NCBI RefSeq assembly: GCF_963921235.1
Contig: NC_086097.1
Span: 38,380,001-38,444,000, forward strand
Reading direction: 5' to 3'
Source of the DNA: Mobula hypostoma
Taxonomy: Eukaryota
Length of the DNA: 64,000 nt
Below, one piece after another: positions 3,228 through 48,829 of the stretch. Every line of letters begins with the position of its first letter. Position 1 is the first letter of the stretch. The notes below the pieces were generated by a model. That model had not been told where the DNA came from. It saw nothing but the letters and a program-made list of their open reading frames with translations, and did not search any database. A program made the position numbers and the translations under genes.

Positions 3228-3865
3228 CATGCACAAAATGGTGGAGGAACTCAGCAGGTCAGGCAGCATTGATGGAGGGAAATGAACAGTCAACATTTTG
3301 GATCGAGACCCTTCATCAGCATTGGAAAGGATGAGGTAGAAGCCAAGATAGGGGGAGGGAGAGGAGCACAAACTGGTGGATGATAGACAAATCTAGGTGA
3401 GAGGAGGAAAGTAGGCGGCTGGGGAGGGAAATGAAAGAGAATCATGCAAGAAGCTTAGAGGTGATAGGTGGAAGAGATAAAGGGCTAAAGAAGAAGGAAT
3501 CTAATAGGAGAGGGAATAAAAAGAGGTGGGGAACCAAAGGAAGGTTATGGATAGATTGTGATGCTGGTTATGGAAAGAGAAGAGATGTGGGGGCCACAAG
3601 AATGAGGTAAAACAAAGGGAAGTAGTTATTGGAGGTTTAAAAAAAATCAGTGTTGGTGCCATCAGGTTGGAGACTACCAAGACAGAATATGAGGTGTGGT
3701 TCCTCCAACCTTCATCTGGTAGTAAGAGGAGGCCATGGACAGACATGTTGGTGTGGGAATGGGAAGTCAAGTTGGAAAGAGATCCTGGCTGTCGCAGTAG
3801 ACAGAGTGAAGATACTCAACAATTTGTTTCAGGTCTCATCAGTGTAAAGGAGGCTGCACCAGGAG
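3228..3865 (-). mobile_element. Penelope-like element 3' part (GIY-YIG remnant plus terminal repeat with mutated hammerhead)
   Basis: Minus strand HSHTNMSVHGLL...RLEEPHLIFCLGSLQP-like residues; degenerate CTGATGA-AGGGTCTCG hammerhead at about 3287-3324. Confidence 0.75.
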
Positions 3866-3869
3866 CACT

Positions 3870-4905
3870 GAATGCCCAGGGTTCCCTTATCCTCAGCCTC
3901 CATACTATGAGCCTCTGCATCTGATATCATTCTCCACAACTTCTGCCATCACCAATGGGATCCCACCACCAGGCACTTCTTCCCCTATCACACCCACACC
4001 CCACAAATGCTTCCTGTGGAGATTGCTTTCTCTGTAATTCCCTTGTTGGCTCAGCCTTCCCCATTAATCTCTCTTCTGGCACTTATCCCTGCAACTATGC
4101 TAAGAGCTACACCTGCCCCTAGACTTTCTCCCTCACCACCATTCAGGGCCGTAAACAGTCCTTCCAGGTAAGACGATGTTTCACCTGTGAACTAGTTGGG
4201 GCTCTTTATTGCACTTGATGCTCTTGGTATGCCCTCTGCATTGGTGAGATCCGATGCAAATTGGAAGACCACTTTGTTGAGCATCTTTTCTCCATACGCC
4301 ACAACAGCCAGGATCTCCCAGTGACCACCCATTTCAATTCCACTGCCCATTCCCACACCAACATGCCTGTCCACAGCTTCCTCTGCTGCCACCATGAAGC
4401 CAAGTGTAGGCTGGAGGAACAACACCTCATATTCCATCTTGGTAGTCACCAACCTGACATCGTCAGCATCAATTTCCCTAACTTGTTTTTCCTCATTCCT
4501 GTGGACCCCTGACCTCTTCTCTTCATCTCCCTCCACACTCATGACCTACCCATCATCTTCCTTTGGTTCCCAACCTCCTTCCCTTTATTCCATGGCCTAC
4601 TGTCCTATCAGATTCCTTCTTCTTCAGCCCTTTGCCTCTTCCACCTTCACCTCCAAGCTTCTCACATCATTTCCTTTATTCATCCCTTTCCCCTCTCACC
4701 AAGACTCACCTATTACCAACGAGCTTATGCTTTCCCCTTCCCTTCACCTTTTTGTTTAGGTTTCTGCCCTCTCTTGCTTTCCAGCCATGATAAAGGATCT
4801 CAGCCTGAAATATTGACAGTTTACTTCCCTCCACTGATGCTGCCTGACCTGCTGACCCAGCCTAACCCAGCAATCCGTGTTGCTGAAGATGTCCAAACCT
4901 GCAGA
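3870..4905 (+). mobile_element. Penelope-like element 3' part, inverted relative to the adjacent copy
   Basis: GIY-YIG-type peptide EDHFVEHL...DLPVTTHFNSTAHSHTNMPVHSFLCCHHEAKCRLEEQHLIFHLGSHQP; polypyrimidine 3' region; decayed hammerhead at about 4781-4820. Confidence 0.8.
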
Positions 4906-5559
4906 ATCCTCTCTTTCCACATTGCCTACATATTTTCATTTGACTGATTCAATGTAGCTTTGAAGTTATATGTTTACCTCAGGCTAATGTGTACCATCGA
5001 ATAGTGTTCTCCAATCTTATGTTCGGTTTCTATACACAGAATTCAGCTTTCTTGAGTGGGTTCACCTGAGCTGCCTTGATTTTATAAGATTTAGCTCATT
5101 TAAAGGCCTTTCCTAATAAATACATCTGTGATGAACTATTAGACTCTTACATTTAAAGGAAAATACCTCTTTAGTTTGAGGGGAGTTTTGTTCTTTTCAC
5201 GTCATTCTTCTAATTAGTTATTCCACTAGTGACTGTGCCCTCTGCTGCAACTAAAATTCAGTAGTGGTCATGCCATCAATGACCAACTCTGCAATATCCT
5301 CCATAAATCTCAACACCTCTATCCTACTCTAAGAAGCTTATTAAAACCACTTGTTTGAAAATGCCTGTGCGAATCTGCTCTGGAATCTCCTTCCAAGTCT
5401 TGGTGTTAAATTTTGTCCTCTATGTTTCTTGGAAGCATCAAGATATATTATTACTTTAAAGGTCTTTACAAATCAAGATGTTGCTGGTGGTAACATTAAC
5501 ATTGCAATGATAAAGCTTCTCATGACTAAGTTGATTACAATATAATAAGTCTGTAGAGT

Positions 5560-13228: not shown

Positions 13229-14168
13229 TGAAAATGAGCAATTAATCTGGATTTTCACACCTTCTAAATGAAAATTTTGGAGAAACTTTGTTCATGATCT
13301 TTCAATGGTTAGATGGAATAAATTATAGGAGATTTGGAAGAGAAACAAGTGATGTTGCTGGTGATTAGGATCTGGTCAGACAGCAATAGAATTTTAATTG
13401 AAGAGTTTGAAGAATTGCAAGTACCTGGGAAGAACATACGCGCCTCTGTGTTGGAAGTGACGCATGGTTCTACTTGCTCTGAATCGTGAACAACCCCAGG
13501 AAAAGTAGCCATGTAAAAAGGGCCTGGGCAGGGAGCGCCAATACCATGCCCCTATCATAGAAATGCACTACCAGGAAACAAAAATCCCGGAGATGTAGAA
13601 GAGCAAACTTTCTGAGTGGTTGTGAATAAGTAAGTGAGTTAAGAGAGAGAGGGAGTGTGTGTGTGTGTGTGAATCATGGTTGGGAGTGGAGGGGATTGAA
13701 TGGAAGTGGAAATATCTTCATTTTGATCCTAAAACTTAAGAAAATTCACACCAAGTTTTTCTTAATTTACCATCAAAGAAAATCCATTATCTTTATTTAC
13801 ATTGTGAGGTGCATTTATTAGTTTTAACAGGTGAACAGGCCAATTAATAATTTCACCTTTTGAAGATCAAAATAAAAACAAACAAAATCTATAATGCCCG
13901 TCCCACTATCATGTAAAACTCTTGTTTTCCTTGTGTGCAGTCGGAAAGAAAAGTTACTGACTGGAACCATTAACCCTGATCCTCTGTCAATTGATGCTGC
14001 CCGAACTGTTGAGTGTTGCCAGCTTTTCACATTTTTAGTATCTGCAAACATTTTCCTTGGGGATTAAATTCAGTTTCCCTTTCCCATTCTCATTCACAAA
14101 TTAACGATATTCAGACTATGTATGTAGAGCACACATATATTATTTGACCAACTCTGTGTGGATATCAA

Positions 14169-19194: not shown

Positions 19195-20810
19195 TTTAGC
19201 AAGGGTATGACAGTATGATAACTACTTTACATAGTGTACTCCAAACTGCTCGATTCTACCTCGTACTCAAGATCCACAAACCTAAATGCCCCTGTTCCTG
19301 CCCCATTGAACTTGTGTTCTCAAACTTCAACTCCATTTTGTGCCCCTTGGTTCAATTTCTTCTAACTTGTATCGTGACACTTCACATTCTCTCCATCACT
19401 TCAACTTTCAGTACCCTGACTGACCCTACCCACCATGGACATCCAGTCCCTGTACATTTCCATCTCCCACAAGGAAGGCCTTAAGGTTTTCTGCTTCTTA
19501 CTGATAACAGTAATCAGTTTTCCTCCCCCAGCACCACCACCTTCTGGCAAAACTGGTACTTAACCTCAACTTCCCAACTTCAGATAATCCACCCCTTTCT
19601 CTCTTTCTCCATTCCCCATTCTGACTCCTCTCGCCCCTTCTCCTTTCCTCACATGCCAAACACCTCCCTCTGATACCCCTCCTCCTCTCATTTATCCCAT
19701 GGTCCAATCTCCTGTCCTTTCAGATTCCTCCTCCTTTAGTCCTTCTACCTATCAGCTCCCTATTTCTAACCACCCCACTCCTTCACACCTACCCATTTTC
19801 CCCTCACCTGGTTTCATCTATCACTTGTCAGCTTGTACTGCTTCCCCTTCCCTACCTTATTCTGGCTTCATACTCCTTTCAATCGACTATTTATTCCTCT
19901 CCATAGATCCTCCCTGACCTGCTGAGTTTCTCAGTATTTTGAGTGTGTTGCTCTTAACCTCAACAATTTTACTTTCAGCTCCTCCCACTTTCTCCAGGCG
20001 GAAGATGTAGCCAACTTATGGACACTCACAAGGGTTTCAGATGTGCCAGCCTTTTCATCAGCTGTGTGGTCCAATCTGTGTTTCAAGCCTACACCAGCAA
20101 CATTCCCAAAGTGTTTCTACACTACAACTGCATTGGTACTGCTTCCTGCACCCATGCTGGGCTCATCAATTTCTCCAACAATTTCCATCCTGCCCCCTTT
20201 CTTGACTTCTCTGTCTCCATCTCTGGAGACAAAGTCTACTGACCCTCACAGTCATCTCGACCATACTTCTTCCTACCCTATCCCTTCTCTTGCTTCCTTC
20301 ACCTCCACTGCATCTGTTCTCAGGATGAGGCTACCCGTCCCTCCACCAAGATAACAAGAGTGGATAGAGGGATCCCGTTGTCGTTACTTACCACCCCATG
20401 AGCTTCTGTATCTAGCACACCATTCCATGCAAGCTCTGCCATCTGCAGTGGATTCCTACCACCAGGCACAGCTTTCCCTCTCCCAACTTCTCCCCTACAG
20501 CCCCCCTCCCTCACCCCTGGCTTTCTGCAGTAATCACTCTTCGTGACCCCCTTGTCCACTTGCCACTCCCCACTGATCTCCCTCTGGCACTTAGCCCTGC
20601 AACTGTGCTAAATGCTACACCTGCCATAAACCCCTGCACCTCCTCCCTTACCGCCATTCAGGGCCCTAAACAGATCTTCCAAATGCGGCAGTATTTCTCC
20701 TGAAAGTCTGTCAGGGTGATCTATTATATCTGGTGCTCCCAGTGCGGCCTCCTCTACATCGGTGTGACTCAGTGTAGATTAGGGGCTGCTTCATACAGCA
20801 CTTTCACTCA
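19195..20810 (+). mobile_element. Decayed Penelope-like element (RT to GIY-YIG) with a nested PLE 3'-end insertion at 19571-19952
   Basis: QTARFYLVLKIHKP...SCPIELV (PLE RT) and CGLLYIG (GIY-YIG); nested piece flanked by 12-bp TSD CTTAACCTCAAC (19559-19570 and 19953-19964). Confidence 0.75.
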
Positions 20811-20947: not shown

Positions 20948-23637
20948 GGAGTGTGAGAATTGAGGATCTAGTGAGAGGAGGAGGAGTGTGAGAATTGAGG
21001 ACCTAGTGAGAGGAGGAGGTGAGAACAGATGATCTAGTGAGTGAGGAGGAGTGTTAGAACAGAGGACCTAGTGATTGGAGAGGAGTGTTAGAACAGAGGA
21101 TCTAGTGAGAGGAGAGGAGTGTTAGGACAGAGGATCTAGTGTGAGAACAGAGGACCTAGTGAGTGGAGAGAGTGTGAGAACAGAGGACCTAGTGAGTGAA
21201 ATGGAGTGTGAGAACAGAGGACCTAGTGAGTGAAGAGGAGTGTGAACAGCGGACCTAGTGAGAGGAGAGGAGTGTGAGAACAGAGGACCTAGTGAGAGGG
21301 GAGGAGTGTTAGAACAGAGGACCTAGTGATTGGAGAGGAGTGTTAGAACAGAGGATCTAGTGAGAGGAGAGGAGTGTTAGGACAGAGGATCTAGTGTGAG
21401 AACAGAGGACCTAGTGAGTGGAGAGGAGTGTGAGAACAGAGGACCTAGTGAGTGAAATGGAGTGTGAGAACAGAGGACCTAGTGAGTGAAGAGGAGTGTG
21501 AACAGAGGACCTAGTGAGAGGAGAGGAGTGTGAGAACAGAGGACCTAGTGAGAGGGGAGGAGTGTTAGAACAGAGGACCTAGTGATTGGAGAGGAGTGTT
21601 AGAACAGAGGATCTAGTGAGAGGAGAGGAGTGTTAGGACAGAGGATCTAGTGTGAGAACAGAGGACCTAGTGAGTGGAGAGGAGTGTGAGAACAGAGGAC
21701 CTAGTGAGTGAAATGGAGTGTGAGAACAGAGGACCTAGTGAGTGAAGAGGAGTGTGAACAGCGGACCTAGTGAGAGGAGAGGAGTGTGAGAACAGATGAC
21801 CTAGTGAGAGGGGAGGAGTGTTAGAACAGAGGACCTAGTGATTGGAGAGGAGTGTTAGAACAGAGGATCTAGTGAGAGGAGAGGAGTGTTAGGACAGAGG
21901 ATCTAGTGTGAGAACAGAGGACCTAGTGAGTGGAGAGTGTGAGAACAGAGGACCTAGTGAGTGAAATGGAGTGTGAGAACAGAGGACCTAGTGAGTGAAG
22001 AGGAGTGTGAACAGAGGACCTAGTGAGAGGAGAGGAGTGTGAGAACAGAGGACCTAGTGAGTGAAATGGAGTGTGAGAACAGAGGACCTAGTGAGTGAAG
22101 AGGAGTGTGAACAGCGGACCTAGTGAGAGGAGAGGAGTGTGAGAACAGAGGACCTAGTGAGAGGGGAGGAGTGTTAGAACAGAGGACCTAGTGATTGGAG
22201 AGGAGTGTTAGAACAGAGGATCTAGTGAGAGGAGAGGAGTGTTAGGACAGAGGATCTAGTGTGAGAACAGAGGACCTAGTGAGTGGAGAGGAGTGTGAGA
22301 ACAGAGGACCTAGTGAGTGAAATGGAGTGTGAGAACAGAGGACCTAGTGAGTGAAGAGGAGTGTGAACAGCGGACCTAGTGAGAGGAGAGGAGTGTGAGA
22401 ACAGATGACCTAGTGAGAGGGGAGGAGTGTTAGAACAGAGGACCTAGTGATTGGAGAGGAGTGTTAGAACAGAGGATCTAGTGAGAGGAGAGGAGTGTTA
22501 GGACAGAGGATCTAGTGTGAGAACAGAGGACCTAGTGAGTGGAGAGTGTGAGAACAGAGGACCTAGTGAGTGAAATGGAGTGTGAGAACAGAGGACCTAG
22601 TGAGTGAAGAGGAGTGTGAACAGAGGACCTAGTGAGAGGAGAGGAGTGTGAGAACAGAGGACCTAGTGAGTGAAATGGAGTGTGAGAACAGAGGACCTAG
22701 TGAGTGAAGAGGAGTGTGAACAGAGGACCTAGTGAGAGGAGAGGAGTGTGAGAACAGAGGACCTAGTGAGAGGGGAGGAGTGTTAGAACAGAGGACCTAG
22801 TGATTGGAGAGGAGTGTTAGAACAGAGGATCTAGTGAGAGGAGAGGAGTGTTAGGACAGAGGATCTAGTGTGAGAACAGAGGACCTAGTGAGTGGAGAGG
22901 AGTGTGAGAACAGAGGACCTAGTGAGTGAAATGGAGTGTGAGAACAGAGGACCTAGTGAGTGAAGAGGAGTGTGAACAGCGGACCTAGTGAGAGGAGAGG
23001 AGTGTGAGAACAGATGACCTAGTGAGAGGGGAGGAGTGTTAGAACAGAGGACCTAGTGATTGGAGAGGAGTGTTAGAACAGAGGATCTAGTGAGAGGAGA
23101 GGAGTGTTAGGACAGAGGATCTAGTGTGAGAACAGAGGACCTAGTGAGTGGAGAGTGTGAGAACAGAGGACCTAGTGAGTGAAATGGAGTGTGAGAACAG
23201 AGGACCTAGTGAGTGAAGAGGAGTGTGAACAGAGGACCTAGTGAGAGGAGAGGAGTGTGAGAACAGAGGACCTTGTGAGTGAAGAGTGTGAGAACAGAGG
23301 ACCTAGTGAGAGGAGAGGAGTGTGAGAACAGAGGACCTAGTGAGAGGAGAGGAGTGTGAGAACAGAGGACCTAGTGAGAGGGGAGGAGTGTGAGAACAGA
23401 CGATCTAGTGAGTGAGGAGGAGTGTTGGGACAGAGGACCTAGTGAGTGAAGAGGAGTGTTGGGACAGAGGACCTAGTGAGTGAAGGAGGAGTGTTGGGAC
23501 AGAGGACCTAGTGAGTGAAGGAGGAGTGTTGGGACAGAGGACCTAGTGAGTGGAGAGGAGTGTGAACAGAGGACTTTGTGAGTGAAGGAGGAGTGTGAGA
23601 ACAGAGGACTTTGTGAGAGGAGAGGAGTGTGAGAACA
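20948..23637 (+). repeat. Purine-rich minisatellite, 34-bp monomer GAACAGAGGACCTAGTGAGAGGAGAGGAGTGTGA, with higher-order structure
   Basis: Diagnostic variant GTGATTGG recurs at 21071, 21326, 21582, 21838, 22191, 22447, 22800, 23056. Confidence 0.97.
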
Positions 23638-25009
23638 TCACTCAATGAGCCCGAAGTTGCTTTCAGATAGATAGATTTTTGGAATTTTACTGTGGATGGC
23701 TTGAGTGCATGGGTAAAAATTTGGTAAATGGAATTTAATGTGTGAAAATGAGGTTGTATACTTTGACATGAGCAATTGAGGAGCAGATTTTTATTTAACC
23801 AGAGGGAAGTTCCTCTGTACTGCACTTATTTGCAGTACAAGGTTAGCAAGTAGTTGGAGTAGTAATGGAACATTGGTCTTTATTGCAGGAGACTGGAGTT
23901 TAAAAAATAATACTGTTACAACTGTGCAGGGTATTGGTGAGGACACATGTGGAGTGTTGACACAGTTTTGGTCACCTTCTTTAAGATCCAAGGAACTTTG
24001 GACTTGCATACCAAGGTCCCTTTGTTCCACAATAGTCCTGATGCACGATGTATCTTCTAGCCTTATTAGTGCTCCCAGAATGCGTCACTCAACATCTCTC
24101 AGGATTTAAAACCATCTCCCATTTCTTAGCTCATTTCAACAAAGCATAAAACCCTGGAGCTTAAGAACAGAGACTAGTTACCAACAATTCAACAAATCCT
24201 AGTGACATCTGTAAATCTGCCAATCATGTCACCTACATCCACATCCAAATCGTTCATATTTATTACAAATAGCAAGGGTCCCAGTGCTGGTACTTGTGGG
24301 GGTTGTGAAGGAATGGACCTGTTCAGTGTGCAAGCTTCGCCATTGCAATGAGTTCCTTGGGCCTTCAGCAAAATAGAACTTGGCTTTATTCGGCCTTGCA
24401 ATAATCTATGCTTCTCCAGAGCAAGAACAGATTGAGAAATTCACAACTCTTTAACTATTTTATTTAAAATTCTTAAAAAATAATAAAAAGTCCAGCTTGA
24501 TTCATTTGTACTCCTAAACTTATTTATGAAGTGTATATATATCTGATTTCACTTCAAATAGCATGGAGAAAATTTTACCCCGAGCTCAAATACAGTTTTG
24601 ACTTTTATTTCTTCCTTCAACGTATTAAAATAAGCTTCATTTGCAATAACCTCTTTAAAACAATTCAATTGTGTCAAATTACATTCCTGTTTATTGCATC
24701 AACTTGGTGCTAAATTTCAATAGGAATATTCGAAGCTTTTCAGAGATGGCCTGAACTTTAGACATTGAATGTTCACAGTTTTTGGTGAAAAAGATCAAAA
24801 GATTGTTCATCAGGAGCTTCCAACGCCAGATGTGTTTTATGTTTTCTGAATTGTCTATAAAGCCTTCTTTTATTCATTTCACAGTAAAAAATTAACTGCA
24901 TGTTTGCCTGTTAGTTAAGTCAACGGCTGGTTATTTGCTTAATTGTGTAACACTATCATCCATTTAATATAGTTGGCAGTAAAACTTACCATTGTATAAA
25001 GTCAAATAC

Positions 25010-25560
25010 AAATGCTGGAACTTGGCTCCATCATGAGCACTGGCCTCCATGGTATAAGACTGTAGACATTTAGACTTAGGAGCAGAATTAGGCCATTCAG
25101 CCATCGAGTCTGCTCCTGCATTTCATCATGGCTGATCCCGGATACTATTCGACCCCATGTACCTGCCCAATCACCATATCCCTTGATGCCCTGACCAATC
25201 AGGAAACTATCATCTTCTGCTTTAAGTATCTACAAGGAGCGATGCCTCAAAAAGGTGGCATCGCCCTCTTCTCATTGCTACCATCGGGAAGGAGGTGCAG
25301 AAGCCTGAAGGCACACTCTCAACAATTCAGGAACAATTTCTTCCCCTCTGCCATCCAATTTCTGAATGGACACTGAACCCATGAACATGACCTCACTACA
25401 TTTAAATTTCTATTTTTTTGCACTACTCATTTCATTTAACTATTTCATATACCTAATAAATATTCACATTTTCACTGTTATTATGTATTGCACTGTACTG
25501 CCGCACAGACAACAGATTTCATTACGCATGCCGGTGATATTAGACTTGATTAAAATGTAG
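25010..25560 (+). mobile_element. Rex1-type LINE 3' end with an inverted CR1 tail inserted at about 25060-25230
   Basis: LFSLLPSGRRCRSLKAHSQQFRNNFFPSAIQFLN C-terminal motif. Confidence 0.7.
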
Positions 25561-26001
25561 GTTTAATTTTACCTATTTCCCCTCCCCTCCCCTCCCACCA
25601 TCTTTGCTGAACATACTAATAACATATCTCCAATACACTCTTACTTCTAAAATGCTATGCCATTTTGAAAACACAGCATAGAAATCGTTTGTTACTCACT
25701 TATAAATAAAGATGAATATGTAGTCACGTCCAGCAAGAAAAATCATTTATTCGTTGCATGTGTGTGGAATTGACAGTAGATGTATTGCAAATATTTTATT
25801 GTCTTTATTCTTGGTTTTAGTTAACCTACTTGTAAGTACTGATACATATCCAGAAATAGCAACACTAACATTTCACCAGCTACAGCAGTAAAAGTATGCT
25901 GTTGCATATTTACCAGTACTTATGTTCATTGTATTATTGTGATGTTTGTTTTGTTTTGTATTGCATTTTGTTTCTGGCTTTGGCTGTGATGTAACTAAAA
26001 G

Positions 26002-26022
26002 GTGATTCTGCTGACAAAGCAG
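26002..26022 (+). CDS. EML5: EML5 21-nt microexon (GDSADKA)
   Basis: aaag|GTGATTCTGCTGACAAAGCAG|gtaaga; phase 1-1; matches recalled human GDSADMS. Confidence 0.9.
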
Positions 26023-26434
26023 GTAAGAAATCTCAAATATTTGGCCTATGCCCTTCCCTTCTCTTGACTGACAGCTTAAAAATTGTTGTCCTTTGTTTAA
26101 AATTGACGGCTGCCCAAAAGCTGAAGGCTGCAAACACACTATGATTAACCTATTAGAAATTGCAGTTGAGTTTCAAGTTCCATTTCAAAAATAACTTCAT
26201 TCTCTTGATGTTATACATCACTCTCAAGGCTAATCATAATTTCATTGAAACCTTTGCAATTAATGTTTTCCTTATTAAATATAAACTTTAGCTACATTAC
26301 AGATTATATGGACAGTTACAAGAGTAAAACAATTCACATTTTAAAAAAACACTAAAATACTTAAAAATCATTGCAATTTAATTGTATCATGGTTGTCAAA
26401 CTGAAACCAAATCGTAGCAGGTGTAATTATGTTA

Positions 26435-26532
26435 CATACATCAAAGTTGCTGGTGAACACAGCAGGCCAAGCAGCATCTATAGGAAGAGGCGCAGTCGAC
26501 GTTTCGGGCCGAGACCCTTCGTCAGGACTAAC
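26435..26532 (-). mobile_element. ~98-bp Penelope-derived mini-insertion with 13-bp TSD
   Basis: TGTAATTATGTTA duplicated at 26422-26434 and 26533-26545; body matches the PLE terminal repeat seen at 3230-3325 and 30347-30440. Confidence 0.85.
26493..26530 (-). ncRNA. Minimal type-I hammerhead ribozyme motif with intact core
   Basis: UAGUC-CUGACGA-A-GGGU(CUCG)GCCC-GAAA-CG-UC^GACUG; stem I, stem II and all core nucleotides present; palindromic ACGU in place of stem III. Confidence 0.82.
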
Positions 26533-27917
26533 TGTAATTATGTTAGGTTGTTTAATATGGGGTAAGTCAGATAGCATTTACTGGAATACCATGCTGATTT
26601 GGGAGTTAAGCATATTTGAAATGCCTTATAAAAAGAAAGCAGATCTAAATCAAACTTGTAAAACTGTTGCCTTTAGTAAAATAGCTTAGGAGAGTTCCAT
26701 CTGCTGTCTGGAATTGATTTATTACATTCCGAAAATATCAGTAAATGCTTAAATGACAAAATAGCAAAAACACATGGAAATAGTTTTATAAAAGAACCCT
26801 TGTGTAATACTGTTTAATCTGTTCAATGTGACTGTACACTAATATTTCGGTCTGCTCTGAACTGGGGCTATCAACTGAGCCAGAGAGTTCTAAACTAGAG
26901 TCAGGGCAGGGCAAGATCTATGTCCTCATTCAAGGGGTGTGGGCTGGACCAGCCCTTAGTTGCCCATTCCTTGAGAAAGTAGTGATGACCGCTGTAATCC
27001 TTGAGGTGTGAATGCTATTAGAGGGAGAGTTTCAGGATTTTGACCCAGTGACGTTGAAGGAACAATGATTGGTTTCCGAGTCAGTATGGTGTTTGGCTTG
27101 AAAGGCAACTTCCAGCTGGTAGTGTTCCTGTGATTTTACTCCCTTTGTCCTTCCTGATGGTAGCATTCATGGTTGAGTGATGTTGAAGAGAGTGTTGCCA
27201 AACCAAGCGTAGATTAATTGTTACCTTTGAAGCAAGTCAATATTTAGCACACCTTCAAATCAAAATCAAAATCTGTGAATGCTAGAAATCTGAAATAAAA
27301 ACAGAAAATGTTGGAAACACTCAGCAAATCAAGTGACATGTATGGAAAGAGAAACAGTTCATCTTTGTGTGAAACCCCTTCAGAGCTTGGAAAAAGAAAA
27401 CAGGTCGATTTGCAGTTGGGAATGAGGCAACAGGACAATCTCTGACAGAATGGAGATAAGCCGGGCTTTGCTGATGGAGAGAGGGAAACTGAGTTAGTAT
27501 TACCGATGAATGATCTATGGCAGAACAGGCCTGCTCTGAGTTAACACTTTCACTCTGTGTTTGCTCTCTGAGTGTTTCTGGCATTTTGTTTTCATCCAAG
27601 AGTAGCATGATCTGTTTCTGTACGTTGTAATGAAGCTCCTGATGTTGAAGGCTGGTAGGCCTTCTTTCTCCACATTCCTCTAGCCTCCATCCAGAAAGGG
27701 TTTTGTTACACCAAACTCAAAATGTACACATTATTCCTGTTTTCTGAGACAAATAGCATTACTCAGTCATAAAGTTTCAGCTGATTTGGTGCTTCTAGTT
27801 GATAATTCAGCCCACTTACTCAGAAGTAGAAGTGTAGCTCAATTCTTCTTAAGGAATGTTGCTAATTCAGCTCTCTTGTAGCATTACGTACAAATACTCA
27901 TACATGTCAGCTTCACT

Positions 27918-28148
27918 GGGGGTGCTGTGATAGTGTAGCGGTTATTACAGCTCAGGGCATCAGAATTCAATTCCAACACTGTACGTCCTTCTGGATTTCT
28001 CTGGGTGCTCCGATTTCCTCCCACATTCTAAAGACGTACCTTTTGTCCCATGATTACCCTAAGTTTAAATAGAGGTGGGGTGCTGGGCACTGGGGCTTGT
28101 TGGGTCCGGAAGGGCCTGTTCCATGCTGTGTCTCTAAGTAAGATAAAA
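27918..28148 (+). mobile_element. tRNA-derived V-SINE (HE1-like)
   Basis: V-domain-like GGGTGCTCCGATTTCCTCCCACATTCTAAAGACG; related copies at 57555-57830 (+) and about 63110-63290 (-). Confidence 0.7.
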
Positions 28149-28622
28149 CTTCTAAACACTACATTGCGATTGTGGGGGAATTTATCATTTAGAAATAATG
28201 CAAATATTGGGGCCCTAATACATGAGTACTGAGCAGCCGTTTAAGGCTTTGGATTTAACTGAGCGTGCATGATTACTTGAGGATAAAACCAGAAGAACAG
28301 GAAAGCTTATGGCTATTGTTTGGCCAAGTTACCCGTATAATTCAATGTATTAAATCCTCTCAATGGATAAATGTCCAAACATCTAATTTAACTTCATAAA
28401 AAGGAATGGGAAAAAATTGAAAAATCATCATACTGAGGTACTCTTTTTCCGATTTTAAGTGTATTCTGGTACCTATGAAAGGCAGTTGTTATGAAATGCT
28501 GCTGAAGCAGCTGATTATTTTCACTCTACCTACTGGGGAATCTCTCCACTATTGCATGTTTCAACATTCAGCAAGTGGAAGTTAGAATTGTTTAAGAATT
28601 GTACTTTAAGGGGGTCTGATAA

Positions 28623-28949
<327 letters not shown>

Positions 28950-28999
28950 TAATGTTACTGAAACATGATAACAATTTCTTACCTATTTCTATTCCATAA

Positions 29000-29224
<225 letters not shown>

Positions 29225-30029
29225 TAAAATGTTGAATTACATGGTTTATGAATAATTATTAGAAATTATTTTGCTGCTTTCTAAAACTAAATGTACAGAA
29301 TAATTTAGAAATCTGTTCATGCTTGCGGTAGGCTTGTTTAATTTTGTTTCTTAAAATAACTATTGAACAATATAATTAGAATATTTCTCTGCATGTCATA
29401 GTTATCTTGACTTGTTTGGAACTTCTGTGTTTCCTTGGGAAAAAGAAAATTGATTTCTTTTGTGTGCATATTTCATATTGAGGTCACGAGACAGCAAATG
29501 CTGGAAATCTGGAGCAAATTTGTGTATTTCACATTGACATGCTGTTATTACAAAAGAAGTTCTTAATTATGCATCTTCTTAATTTCTAGACATTTAAATA
29601 AGTATCACACAGCTGAAACTGCTGCCACACCTGAAGAACTAAAACCTGTTTTAAACTCAAAAGCAAAATAATGCATATGTTGGAAATCAGAAGTAAAAAC
29701 AAGATGCTAAAAGTGCTGAGCAGATCAGCTAACATGAGTGGAGAGATAGTTAATGTTTCATCAGAATTAAAATAAGTCAGACATTAAATAAAGAATGGAA
29801 AATGGAAGGAAGGAAGAGGGATGTTCATCCATTCCAAGCCTGACCCCTATGTCTTTGAAAAATCTGAAAATAAATTTGAGGACCAGCTAATGGGCACAGT
29901 ACAGTCTTTGATTTTCAGCTCTAATTTCAACTATTCCATTTGCATCTCTTCAATGTTCATTCACTGCCTGTCACACTATCATTCCTCCTTGTCTTTTCCC
30001 AATATTCTATCATTAACTGCTCATGTACC

Positions 30030-30475
30030 GACTGGGTAGTCTCCAGCCCCTTGGTATGAACATAGAATTCTCCAACTTCTGGTAATTCCCTCCCCCTCCC
30101 TTCCCCTATCCCTATGTCACTCTGCCCCCTCCCCCAGCTGCCTACTACCTCCCTCATGGTTCCGCCTCCTTCTACTACCCATTGTGTTTTCCCCTATTCC
30201 TTCTTCACCTTTCCTGCCTATCCCCACCCTGCTTCCCCTCCCCCACCCCTTTATCTTTCCCCTTACTGGTTTTTCACCTGGAACCTACCAGCCTTCTCCT
30301 TCCCACCCTCCCCCACTTTCTTTATGGGCCCCTGCCCCTTCCCTCTTCAGTCCTGATGATCAGTCCAAAACGTTGACTGATCGTTTCCACGAATGCTGCC
30401 CGATCTGCTGAGTTCCTCCAGCTTGTTGTGAGTGTTACTTTGACCCCAGCATCTGCAGAATATTTTGTGTTTACT
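30030..30475 (+). mobile_element. Penelope-like 3' end with mutated hammerhead
   Basis: LGSLQPLGMNIEFSNF end of GIY-YIG; CAGTC-CTGATGA...AAAACGTTGACTG at 30348-30379. Confidence 0.75.
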
Positions 30476-47553: not shown

Positions 47554-48829
47554 CTAATAAAAAGGAAAAAATATTGGAAAATGTTAATACAAAACTATCA
47601 TAATGAACTTCCATACATACTGCTTAAAATTTATGTTCTTGCCAAAAAATACTAAAATGAAAATTTAAGAAGTATTAGAATACAAACAAAAAAATTTCAA
47701 CATTCATTCAAGCACAAGTACATTATTTGTATGTTTAAAACTGATCATTACATTTTGAATCAAGGTGACTGGCATTCAAAGAGCTACTTCTTTGGAGTTA
47801 TACCACACAATATGATATGCTTACACAAAGCAAGCTCCATCATGGGCACCAGTCTCCTACCATTGAGGTCAACTTCAAATGGTAATGCCTCAGAAAAGTA
47901 GCATCAATCATTAAGACCCCTAACACATGCTCTTTTCTTATTAGCACCATCAGGGAGGAGGGAGGAAGTACAGGAGATTTAAAGCACATGCTCAACGTTT
48001 TAGGAACAGCTTCTTCTCCTTGGCCATCAGATTTCTGAATGGTCAATGAACATTACCTCACTATCTTGCCCAATTTTACACTACTTATTTATTTTTTATT
48101 ATATTTCTTATGGTAATTTATAGTTCTTTAAAAAAAATGCCACAAAACAACACATTTCAAGACATGTCAGTGACAAAGCTGATTCTGACTCAGTATTACT
48201 AAATAATGTAAAAGAATCAGTTCATTTTTTAATGAATTTGAAACAGGATACAAAATGCAGTAAATACTCAACAGATCAGGTAGTATCTGTGGATAAAATT
48301 ATTACATTTAAGATTGATCGCCTTTCTGCAGGTTCTGAAGAGGTTATTAATCCTTAACACCACAGTTAGAAAATAAAATCCTCAGAGTTTAACATAATCT
48401 CCAGCTGAAGATACCTCTCATCTTTGACCCAATTGCTGACATGGTATAATAGAAAGATAATAATAATAGATAGATAGATAGCTAAGCAATAAATATCGAG
48501 AACACAAGATGAAGAGTCCTTGAAAGTGAGTCCATAGGTTGTGGGAACAGTTCAGTGATGGAGTTTCCCTGTCCATGCTTCTTCATTCCCATAAGTGAAT
48601 AGACCAAAATAACTGTGTTTCCCAAGTCCTCTTCTATGAAGCCTTCCAAGAATTCACCACTCTTAAAGTTAAGAACCTGCTTCACATTTCAGTCCTAAAT
48701 GGCTGACTTGTATCAGTTTTCAGTACTGTTAATTTCAAAGCTAATTTTATTTTTAGCTCCCTGTTCACTCTGGATCCATTGTTCTTCACTATTTCCAGAA
48801 GATTTTTTTGTCATTTTCCATGAAATCAG

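What the first reader, a model, noticed from the sequence alone, without database searches (positions are those of the whole stretch)
26422..26545. Mobile ~98-nt element that is little more than an intact hammerhead ribozyme
Seen: a perfect 13-bp TSD (TGTAATTATGTTA) flanks a 98-bp insert. Its minus strand reads GT-TAGTC-CTGACGA-A-GGGT(CTCG)GCCC-GAAA-CG-TC^GACTG followed by a ~58-nt tail. Stem I (UAGUC/GACUG), stem II, the CUGANGA and GAAA core and the GUC cleavage triplet are intact, with an extra A after A9. Stem III is reduced to the palindrome ACGU. Established: Penelope-like elements carry such minimal type-I hammerheads, which are thought to cleave as dimers. Inference: this is a recent insertion whose 5' end falls 2 nt before stem I. 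It may be an extremely truncated PLE or a member of a discrete non-autonomous ribozyme mini-element (retrozyme-like) family. It lies antisense to EML5, about 410 nt downstream of the 21-nt microexon.
Basis: partly seen in the sequence, partly recalled or inferred. Interest (0 to 1): 0.72.

Follow-up and report, generated by a model that had tools for sequence, protein, structure and literature searches.

The report
Penelope end-piece starting at its hammerhead
This 98-base insertion is a recent, likely dead end-piece of a very abundant Penelope-like jumping gene in a ray- or skate-like genome, carrying a small ribozyme motif already known from such elements; the one open point is that many sister copies begin at the same few bases in front of the motif, which may mark where the element's RNA starts.

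Summary
Observation confirmed: perfect 13-bp TSD, 98-nt insert, intact minimal hammerhead on the minus strand, antisense in EML5, 413 nt after a 21-nt microexon. Two related species hold the empty site, so the insertion is real and recent. It is the 3' end-module of a very high-copy Penelope-like element (PLE). Older window copies sit behind GIY-YIG coding pieces. Sister contigs continue upstream and downstream of both ends. Distant PLE relatives carry the same motif, with covarying stems, behind their ORF in 37 of 54 loci. It is not a retrozyme by the published test, being a monomer. 5' ends are not random: contigs with unique flanks pile up at 26528-26529, the front arm of stem I; the cut site is not among the listed piles. 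Best reading: run-off copy of an uncut RNA starting there. TATA boxes sit 34-39 nt before the core in one related family. Catalysis is untested, and the monomer is predicted to misfold. This scan reported the same family and pile-up many times on other DNA, including this genome. Known kind; modest interest.

The parts
26422..26434 (.). Target-site duplication, left copy (13 bp, 85% A+T); 26434 also matches the family's next base
   Evidence: single copy at the empty site in X5 and X10
26435..26532 (-). 98-nt insert: 3' end-module (pseudo-LTR end) of a Penelope-like element, without the optional 30-40-nt tail
26493..26530 (-). Minimal type I hammerhead motif; predicted cut 26498/26497
   Evidence: covariation across PLE relatives
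26528..26529 (-). Front arm of stem I: place where many sister contigs meet unique flanking DNA; reads both as an initiator-like and as a splice-acceptor-like motif (consensus motifs recalled)
   Evidence: loose ends; random-flank control
26435..26492 (-). 58-nt stretch after the ribozyme with a small hairpin; ends 63 nt after the predicted cut, at the first of two family 3' ends
26533..26545 (.). Target-site duplication, right copy; 26533-26534 also match the subfamily's upstream bases (2-nt microhomology)
26002..26022 (+). EML5 21-nt microexon (host context)
3926..4919 (+). Older PLE copy: linker and GIY-YIG coding piece, CT-rich UTR, decayed hammerhead, tail
3228..3877 (-). Adjacent inverted 5'-truncated PLE copy with decayed hammerhead (about 75% identical to the insert over 73 nt)
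19651..20809 (+). Partial tandem of PLE pieces: UTR and end-module (hammerhead deleted) followed by RT, linker (C-x4-C-x2-C at 20598) and start of GIY-YIG
30016..30474 (+). Older 5'-truncated PLE copy: GIY-YIG end, UTR, hammerhead with stem II deletion, tail
13925..14059 (+). Old short end-module with a 9-bp direct-repeat remnant, starting a few bases before the stem I arm

Best explanation
The insert is the end-module of a very high-copy Penelope-like retrotransposon, pasted recently with a 13-bp duplication, likely by target-primed reverse transcription of an uncut element RNA that likely begins just in front of the hammerhead. Shown: insertion, empty site, family identity, pile-up of 5' junctions at the front arm of stem I. 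Inferred by analogy to the anole PLE (PMC11167929): the GIY-YIG nuclease nicks AT-rich DNA and the RT starts inside the RNA, here about 63 nt (or about 105 nt, giving the tail) after the hammerhead cut site. Inferred here: when the RT uses that start site near the 5' end of a transcript initiated in the pseudo-LTR, it runs off the RNA end after about 90-140 nt, giving a stereotyped short copy; 2 nt of microhomology would help join the 5' end. The ribozyme did not cut the template, since the copy spans the cut site. This copy has no ORF, no partner hammerhead and lies antisense to EML5, so it is likely inert. Identity as a PLE end-piece about 0.95; the run-off step about 0.5.
For: Empty site in X5 and X10; flanks differ from the window at 19 and 50 of about 1090 positions. 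32,994 contigs of run X1 align to the 151-bp stretch. 177 of them continue past 26534 into one shared upstream sequence (agreement 0.64); 85 run on past 26434 with family letters first. Homologous modules follow GIY-YIG coding pieces at 3.2-4.9, 19.7-20.8 and 30.0-30.5 kb. In relatives, a sense core lies within 450 nt of the ORF end in 37 of 54 loci, an antisense core in 0 of 54; stems covary (85% of cells paired against 61 +/- 2% shuffled, 8 of 9 pairs with double changes). Pile-up: 70 loose ends behind 26528 (agreement 0.34, random flanks 0.347; median length 255) and 125 behind 26529 (0.36, random 0.336), against a mean of about 4.6 at the 112 unlisted places if each contig has one loose end. 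Places 26527-26529 also head the lists of X5 and X10. The cut site is not among the six listed places in any of 4 runs. In relatives 3 of 13 minus-strand copies break 3-11 nt before the core, a TATAWA lies 45-26 nt before the core in 26 of 46 ORF-linked cores, and 3' ends cluster near +62-66 and +105-112 from the cut (read by eye).
Against: No RNA start was mapped; contigs cannot show one. This copy starts at 26532-26534, 3-5 nt upstream of the main pile, and its 2-nt microhomology fits ordinary truncation equally well. 26529 is also where older subfamilies diverge from this copy, so part of that pile is alignment clipping (at 85% its consensus begins with family-like purines). Counts are contigs, not copies, and only 6 of 118 places were shown. 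The TATA signal comes from essentially one related family and I saw no clear TATA box before the ray copies. 3 of 13 is weak (P 0.08, 0.014 or 0.0005 for spans of 150, 300 or 1000 nt) and 10 of 13 extend 46-500 nt upstream. In D. virilis Penelope the RNA start lies 46 nt before a 75-nt intron whose end maps at helix I (PMC2377424, PMC4209133), so there the front edge is a splice acceptor, not a start. The young subfamily's own ORF was not seen: only 30 nt of its upstream sequence were available.
Confidence: 0.55

Rival explanations
1. Ordinary random 5' truncation: the RT started at the element's 3' end on a long RNA and fell off after 98 nt, joining by 2-nt microhomology; the intact hammerhead is luck and youth.
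For: Heavy 5' truncation is standard for PLEs (PMC8557442, passages). The subfamily continues upstream (177 contigs). This copy's end is 3-5 nt off the main pile and has microhomology. Window copies at 3.2, 4.8, 19.9 and 30.4 kb extend far upstream.
Against: Junctions to random-looking flanks are about 15 times (26528) above the mean of unlisted places and recur in X5 and X10.
Confidence: 0.22
2. Independent non-autonomous mini-element (retrozyme-like): short modules are themselves transcribed, perhaps as circles from tandem arrays, and are mobilised by the PLE protein.
For: Both ends recur. pLTR sequences suffice for mobilisation in trans in rotifers (PMC3846280, passages). Retrozymes derive from pLTRs (bioRxiv 10.64898/2026.07.22.740005). 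A few single contigs join a module end to a module start (table 5c).
Against: This copy is a monomer. It spans the cut site and starts 35 nt before it, not at it. Its diagnostic bases are shared with contigs that continue into upstream element sequence. Tandem-like joints are a handful among 32,994 contigs.
Confidence: 0.1
3. The front edge is a 3' splice site: RNAs spliced onto the module (from an element exon or from host exons) are the templates, so junctions fall at the AG.
For: Pyrimidine tract plus AG at 26529-26528, and a second AG at 26533-26532, in window copies and loose-end consensus. An intron end maps at helix I in D. virilis (PMC4209133). Exons often end in G or AG (recalled), which would shift apparent ends to 26528-26529.
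Against: Here the TSD abuts the module with no extra exon. No shared upstream exon appears in the 26528 consensus. The branch-point-like heptamer is in the X1 consensus only; its key base differs in X5, X9 and X10. The largest related family has no AG there, yet breaks at the same place.
Confidence: 0.08
4. The folded ribozyme, or protein bound to it, blocks the RT on a longer RNA.
For: The pile sits at a structure boundary; the PLE protein assists the anole hammerhead (PMC11167929).
Against: An RT meets the 3' arm (26493) first, but the pile lies on the far side, after the whole structure was copied. The fold is weak (-13.1 kcal/mol).
Confidence: 0.05

Closest known systems
Minimal hammerheads (min-HHR) in pseudo-LTRs of metazoan PLEs (Cervera and De la Pena 2014, PMC4209133; parts 1-2 of 4 read)
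   Same: Type I core, 4-5-bp helix I, extra base between 9 and 10.1, G10.1-C11.1, palindromic 15.2-16.2, mostly solo copies related to truncated PLEs, thousands per genome, no monomer activity for the one tested.
   Different: Helix II is 4 bp here (7-8 in Schistosoma). Cartilaginous fish are not named in the parts read; the supplement was not seen. A preferred 5' junction at helix I is not described there.
Endonuclease-positive PLE insertions, Neptune/Nematis type (Craig et al. 2021, PMC8557442, passages; Arkhipova et al. 2013, PMC3846280, section 6 and passages)
   Same: 5' truncation, partial tandems, adjacent inverted copy, optional 30-40-bp tail, short TSDs (8-10 bp in rotifer), C-x2-5-CxxC linker, TATA and Inr-like motifs in a pLTR.
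   Different: This copy is only 98 nt with a 13-bp TSD; clade assigned by motif only; clustering of 5' ends at the ribozyme is not stated in the passages read.
PAc Poseidon element of Anolis (Frangieh et al. 2024, PMC11167929; parts 1-2 of 4 read)
   Same: AT-rich target, internal RT starts at two sites that define the tail, uncut RNA as main template, protein-assisted hammerhead, no RNA ends at the cut site.
   Different: PAc's start codon lies at stem II and RT starts 85-92 nt after the cut in an AC-rich stem-loop; here the end is 63 nt after the cut in GU-rich sequence and the core has no AUG.
Non-LTR retrozymes (bioRxiv 10.64898/2026.07.22.740005; parts 1-3 of 5 read)
   Same: Non-coding, pLTR-related, type I hammerhead; monomers occur; present in one chondrichthyan genome.
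   Different: Defined by at least two tandem units with hammerheads; this is a TSD-flanked monomer whose subfamily continues into element sequence.

Membership tests
Minimal hammerhead of metazoan PLEs | Core CUGANGA, GAAA, UH in type I order | tested here: met
Minimal hammerhead of metazoan PLEs | Short helix I, helix II with G10.1-C11.1, extra base after A9, palindromic 15.2-16.2 without helix III | tested here: met
   stems covary in 22 aligned motifs
Minimal hammerhead of metazoan PLEs | Location in the terminal repeat behind an RT/GIY-YIG ORF, sense strand | tested here: met
   older homologous window copies; 37 of 54 related loci sense, 0 antisense
Minimal hammerhead of metazoan PLEs | Weak self-cleavage as a dimer or with protein help | not testable with these tools
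   energy model only: core mispaired in the monomer, swapped dimer -17.1 against -26.2 kcal/mol for two monomers
EN+ PLE insertion | TSD at an AT-rich target with an empty site in relatives | tested here: met
EN+ PLE insertion | 3'-anchored, 5'-shortened copy of a longer element, optional 30-40-nt tail | tested here: met
   family continues at both ends; tail in copies at 4.8 and 30.4 kb, absent at 3.3 and 26.5 kb
EN+ PLE insertion | The young subfamily itself has an RT/GIY-YIG ORF | tested here: inconclusive
   only 30 nt of its upstream sequence seen; no genome held
Neptune/Nematis clade | C-x2-5-CxxC linker between RT and C-terminal GIY-YIG | tested here: met
   window 20598, P0001; definition from PMC8557442
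Neptune/Nematis clade | Placement in the RT phylogeny | not tested
   no clade-labelled reference proteins were fetched
Non-LTR retrozyme | At least two tandem units, each with a hammerhead | tested here: not met
   single unit between TSDs
Non-LTR retrozyme | Circular RNA | not testable with these tools
   only contigs were served
Rfam hammerhead families | Covariance-model match | tested here: not met
   no hit at E up to 1 in 24000-29000 or at gathering score in the window

The most novel reading that the evidence does not exclude
Neptune-type PLEs start their RNA at the 5' arm of hammerhead stem I and begin reverse transcription only 60-105 nt past the ribozyme, so they shed a discrete class of 90-140-nt run-off copies, like retroviral strong-stop DNA integrated on its own. 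The same geometry holds in rays and in distant invertebrate-type relatives, and stem I lets the new cDNA end snap back to build the inverted repeats typical of PLEs. The conserved ribozyme fold would then be the 5' end-piece of the template more than a cutter.
Probability: 0.4. Interest if true: 0.55.

Novelty: new member of a known kind. Interest (0 to 1): 0.27.

Why it matters
The insertion itself is one of a great many sister copies and is likely inert; it could serve as a presence/absence marker between close species. The family-level pattern matters more: how PLEs start and finish copying, and what their weak hammerheads are for, is open (PMC11167929, PMC4209133). If short copies are run-off products, genome sequence alone maps the RNA start and the two RT starts, and gives a direct in vitro test. 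This scan has already noted the pattern many times, so this window adds an empty-site proof and a cross-family comparison, not a new idea.

Tried and rejected
No whole genome is held, so no assembly-wide table of ends or TSDs was possible. Rfam found no hammerhead. Exact-pattern scans for the motif found 0 matches in viral, metagenome and prokaryote collections; viral contigs held no PLE protein relative. No RNA holder was listed on record; run X9 is only guessed to be RNA and did not bridge the site, so expression and polymorphism within the species are untested. No empty allele was listed in X1, but contigs drop variants and X1 may be the source. Pfam did not recognise the decayed window pieces; P0001 gave GIY-YIG at E 0.0005, below the cut-off. 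The Atlas look-up of an EML exon gave only WD40 look-alikes. No TSD of 8 bp or more was found around the 3.2-4.9 kb inverted unit. A branch point before the module was considered and judged weak (key base varies between runs). Host co-option was rejected: lineage-specific, antisense, intronic. The look-up of earlier findings by sequence returned nothing. Lunse et al. on dimer cleavage is not held; only its title in a reference list was seen.

Full report
Observation. The 13-mer TGTAATTATGTTA lies at 26422-26434 and 26533-26545 and nowhere else in the window; between lie 98 nt. On the minus strand these hold stem I (26530-26526 with 26497-26493), CUGACGA, an extra A, a 4-bp stem II, GAAA, the palindrome ACGU and C17 at 26498. 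A descriptor for minimal hammerheads hits only this site in the window and nothing in 20 shuffles. Rfam does not detect it, and the 98-mer folds no better than shuffles. The host gene is EML5 on the + strand; the 21-nt microexon is 26002-26022 and is an alternative exon among homologs (26 of 120 carry a GDS.D peptide). The closest protein matches are from a skate and a manta ray, so the genome is likely a batoid.

A real and recent insertion. Contigs of organisms B and C bridge the site and skip exactly 111 nt, insert plus one TSD copy. Their flanks differ from the window at 19 and 50 of about 1090 positions. The insertion is therefore younger than a split of about 1.7% (or still polymorphic), which fits the perfect TSD and intact CpGs.

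What it belongs to. 32,994 contigs of run X1 align to the 151-bp stretch at 90% or more; over the wider 1.2-kb stretch, which holds one more repeat, X5, X10 and X9 gave 22,713, 12,100 and 2,614 at 85%. These are contigs, not copies, but the family is very large. The 98-mer is a piece of something longer. 177 contigs match through 26534 and continue into one shared pyrimidine-rich upstream sequence, so 2 nt of the TSD are also element sequence; 85 run on past 26434 with family letters first. Within the window, decayed homologous modules lie at 3.3, 4.8, 19.9 and 30.4 kb, behind a CT-rich stretch and, in three of the four, a GIY-YIG coding end; the fourth is followed by an RT-to-GIY-YIG piece (probe P0001, an RT-C-terminus plus GIY-YIG protein). 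They show the PLE hallmarks listed in PMC8557442 (passages): an adjacent inverted copy, a partial tandem, an optional tail and a C-x4-C-x2-C linker, which points to Neptune or Nematis. No tree was made.

Relatives. A metagenome scan with a PLE protein alignment gave 520 loci, of which the best 80 were kept; their hosts are not named. In the 54 with an ORF end and at least 250 nt after it, 37 have a sense hammerhead core within 450 nt and none an antisense one (core-only pattern; the strict descriptor gave 5 of 36 against 0). I aligned the window motif with 21 hand-picked cores of the 59 found, spread over families. Stems I and II pair in 85% of cells against 61 +/- 2% in shuffles and 20-46% when slid; 8 of 9 pairs change on both sides. 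The pattern fixed part of stem II, and kin are not independent, but stem I was free. This is the min-HHR of PMC4209133.

Where copies start. In X1 the listed loose ends on the 5' side are 26534 (177, family sequence), 26529 (125) and 26528 (70). At 26528 agreement is 0.34 and median length 255, like random genomic flanks (0.347 for n = 70); at 26529 it is 0.36 against 0.336, a mix. The other 515 of 1102 partly fitting contigs spread over 112 unlisted places, about 4.6 each if each has one loose end. Places 26527-26529 also lead in X5 and X10. The cut site is not among the listed places in any run. Limits: only six places per run are shown, and 26529 is also where older subfamilies diverge from this copy. 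In the related loci, 3 of 13 minus-strand copies with a family match break 3, 9 and 11 nt before the core, and the other 10 extend 46-500 nt (one further core had no family). A TATAWA lies 45-26 nt before the core in 26 of 46 ORF-linked cores and in at most 2 in windows further upstream, nearly all from one family. By eye their 3' ends fall near +62-66 and +105-112 from the cut; this insert ends at +63.

Mechanism. Shown: insertion with TSD into AT-rich DNA, PLE identity, a copy that spans the cut site, and a preferred 5' junction. From PMC11167929: a PLE protein nicks AT-rich DNA, starts RT at two internal sites that define the tail, uses uncut RNA, and helps its hammerhead cut. Inferred: a transcript that starts in the pseudo-LTR at the stem I arm has an RT start site only about 100-140 nt from its 5' end; using it gives a short run-off copy. 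I adopted this reading after seeing the scan's earlier notes; my own tests are those above. Against it: no RNA start was mapped, this copy begins 3-5 nt upstream of the main pile with microhomology, and in D. virilis the same edge is an intron end with the start further up (PMC4209133; PMC2377424, passages). The ray sequence reads both as an initiator and as a splice acceptor (consensus motifs recalled). Activity of this copy is unlikely: it is antisense to EML5, has no partner, and the monomer is predicted to pair GACG with CGUC across the core (-13.1 kcal/mol; open core -9.1); the swapped dimer (-17.1) is not favoured over two monomers (-26.2) in a model that ignores tertiary contacts.

Known and new. 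The motif, solo truncated copies, tails, inverted copies and TATA/Inr-like pLTR motifs are in print (PMC4209133, PMC8557442, PMC3846280). It fails the tandem criterion of non-LTR retrozymes (bioRxiv 10.64898/2026.07.22.740005). I found no paper on this elasmobranch family or on 5' ends clustering at helix I in the listings; Repbase, Dfam, subscription journals and all supplements were not seen and may hold the family. PMC6155905 and PMC6765202 were read as passages. The scan itself noted this family in at least 13 genomes and the pile-up repeatedly in this genome (unchecked AI notes, not independent support).

Verdict. A correct catch of a known kind: a young PLE end-piece with a min-HHR. Interest 0.27, carried by the family-level start-site question.

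Noticed in passing
Read-laying table 5c, joints 26527-26529 to 26491-26493 in X1, X5 and X10: Recurring joints link the two arms of stem I. The strand is not given: they are either 38-nt tandem duplications of the ribozyme or fold-backs in which the cDNA end snaps back through stem I.
   Followed up: no
Read-laying table 5c, joints 26525-26534 to 26438-26442 in X1: A few single contigs join a module end to a module start, possibly short head-to-tail dimers, the best candidates for an active double hammerhead.
   Followed up: no
window 26528-26546 (+): On the EML5 sense strand the insert end adds a CTAAC branch-point-like motif 14 nt before an existing AG; a weak cryptic acceptor near a microexon is possible but has no support.
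   Followed up: no
window 13925-14059 (+), 27305-27388 (-), 29704-29759 (-), 48255-48327 (-): Four more old, short end-modules; the first has a 9-bp direct-repeat remnant, and all seem to begin near the ribozyme front edge. Upstream homology may simply have decayed.
   Followed up: partly
window 30.4 kb and 4.8 kb copies: The optional tail holds a reverse complement of the ATGCTG-containing stretch just after the ribozyme, so tailed modules could close a longer stem that this copy lacks.
   Followed up: no
L045, L009, L069: Inverted-pair PLE units in related loci are flanked by direct repeats of 13, 16 and 13 bp, the same size class as this TSD; 4 of 7 units tested had none of 10 bp or more.
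   Followed up: partly
window 25900-26057: The microexon and about 100 nt before it show no listed differences in organisms B and C, while the intron beyond does (23 rows were not shown). Its peptide ends in KA where most homologs have MS.
   Followed up: partly
window 20948-23637: A 2.7-kb purine-rich minisatellite (period about 34, higher-order 256) inside an EML5 intron.
   Followed up: no
L026 2030 (-): A canonical type I hammerhead with a 6-nt palindromic stem III, unlike the PLE motifs.
   Followed up: no
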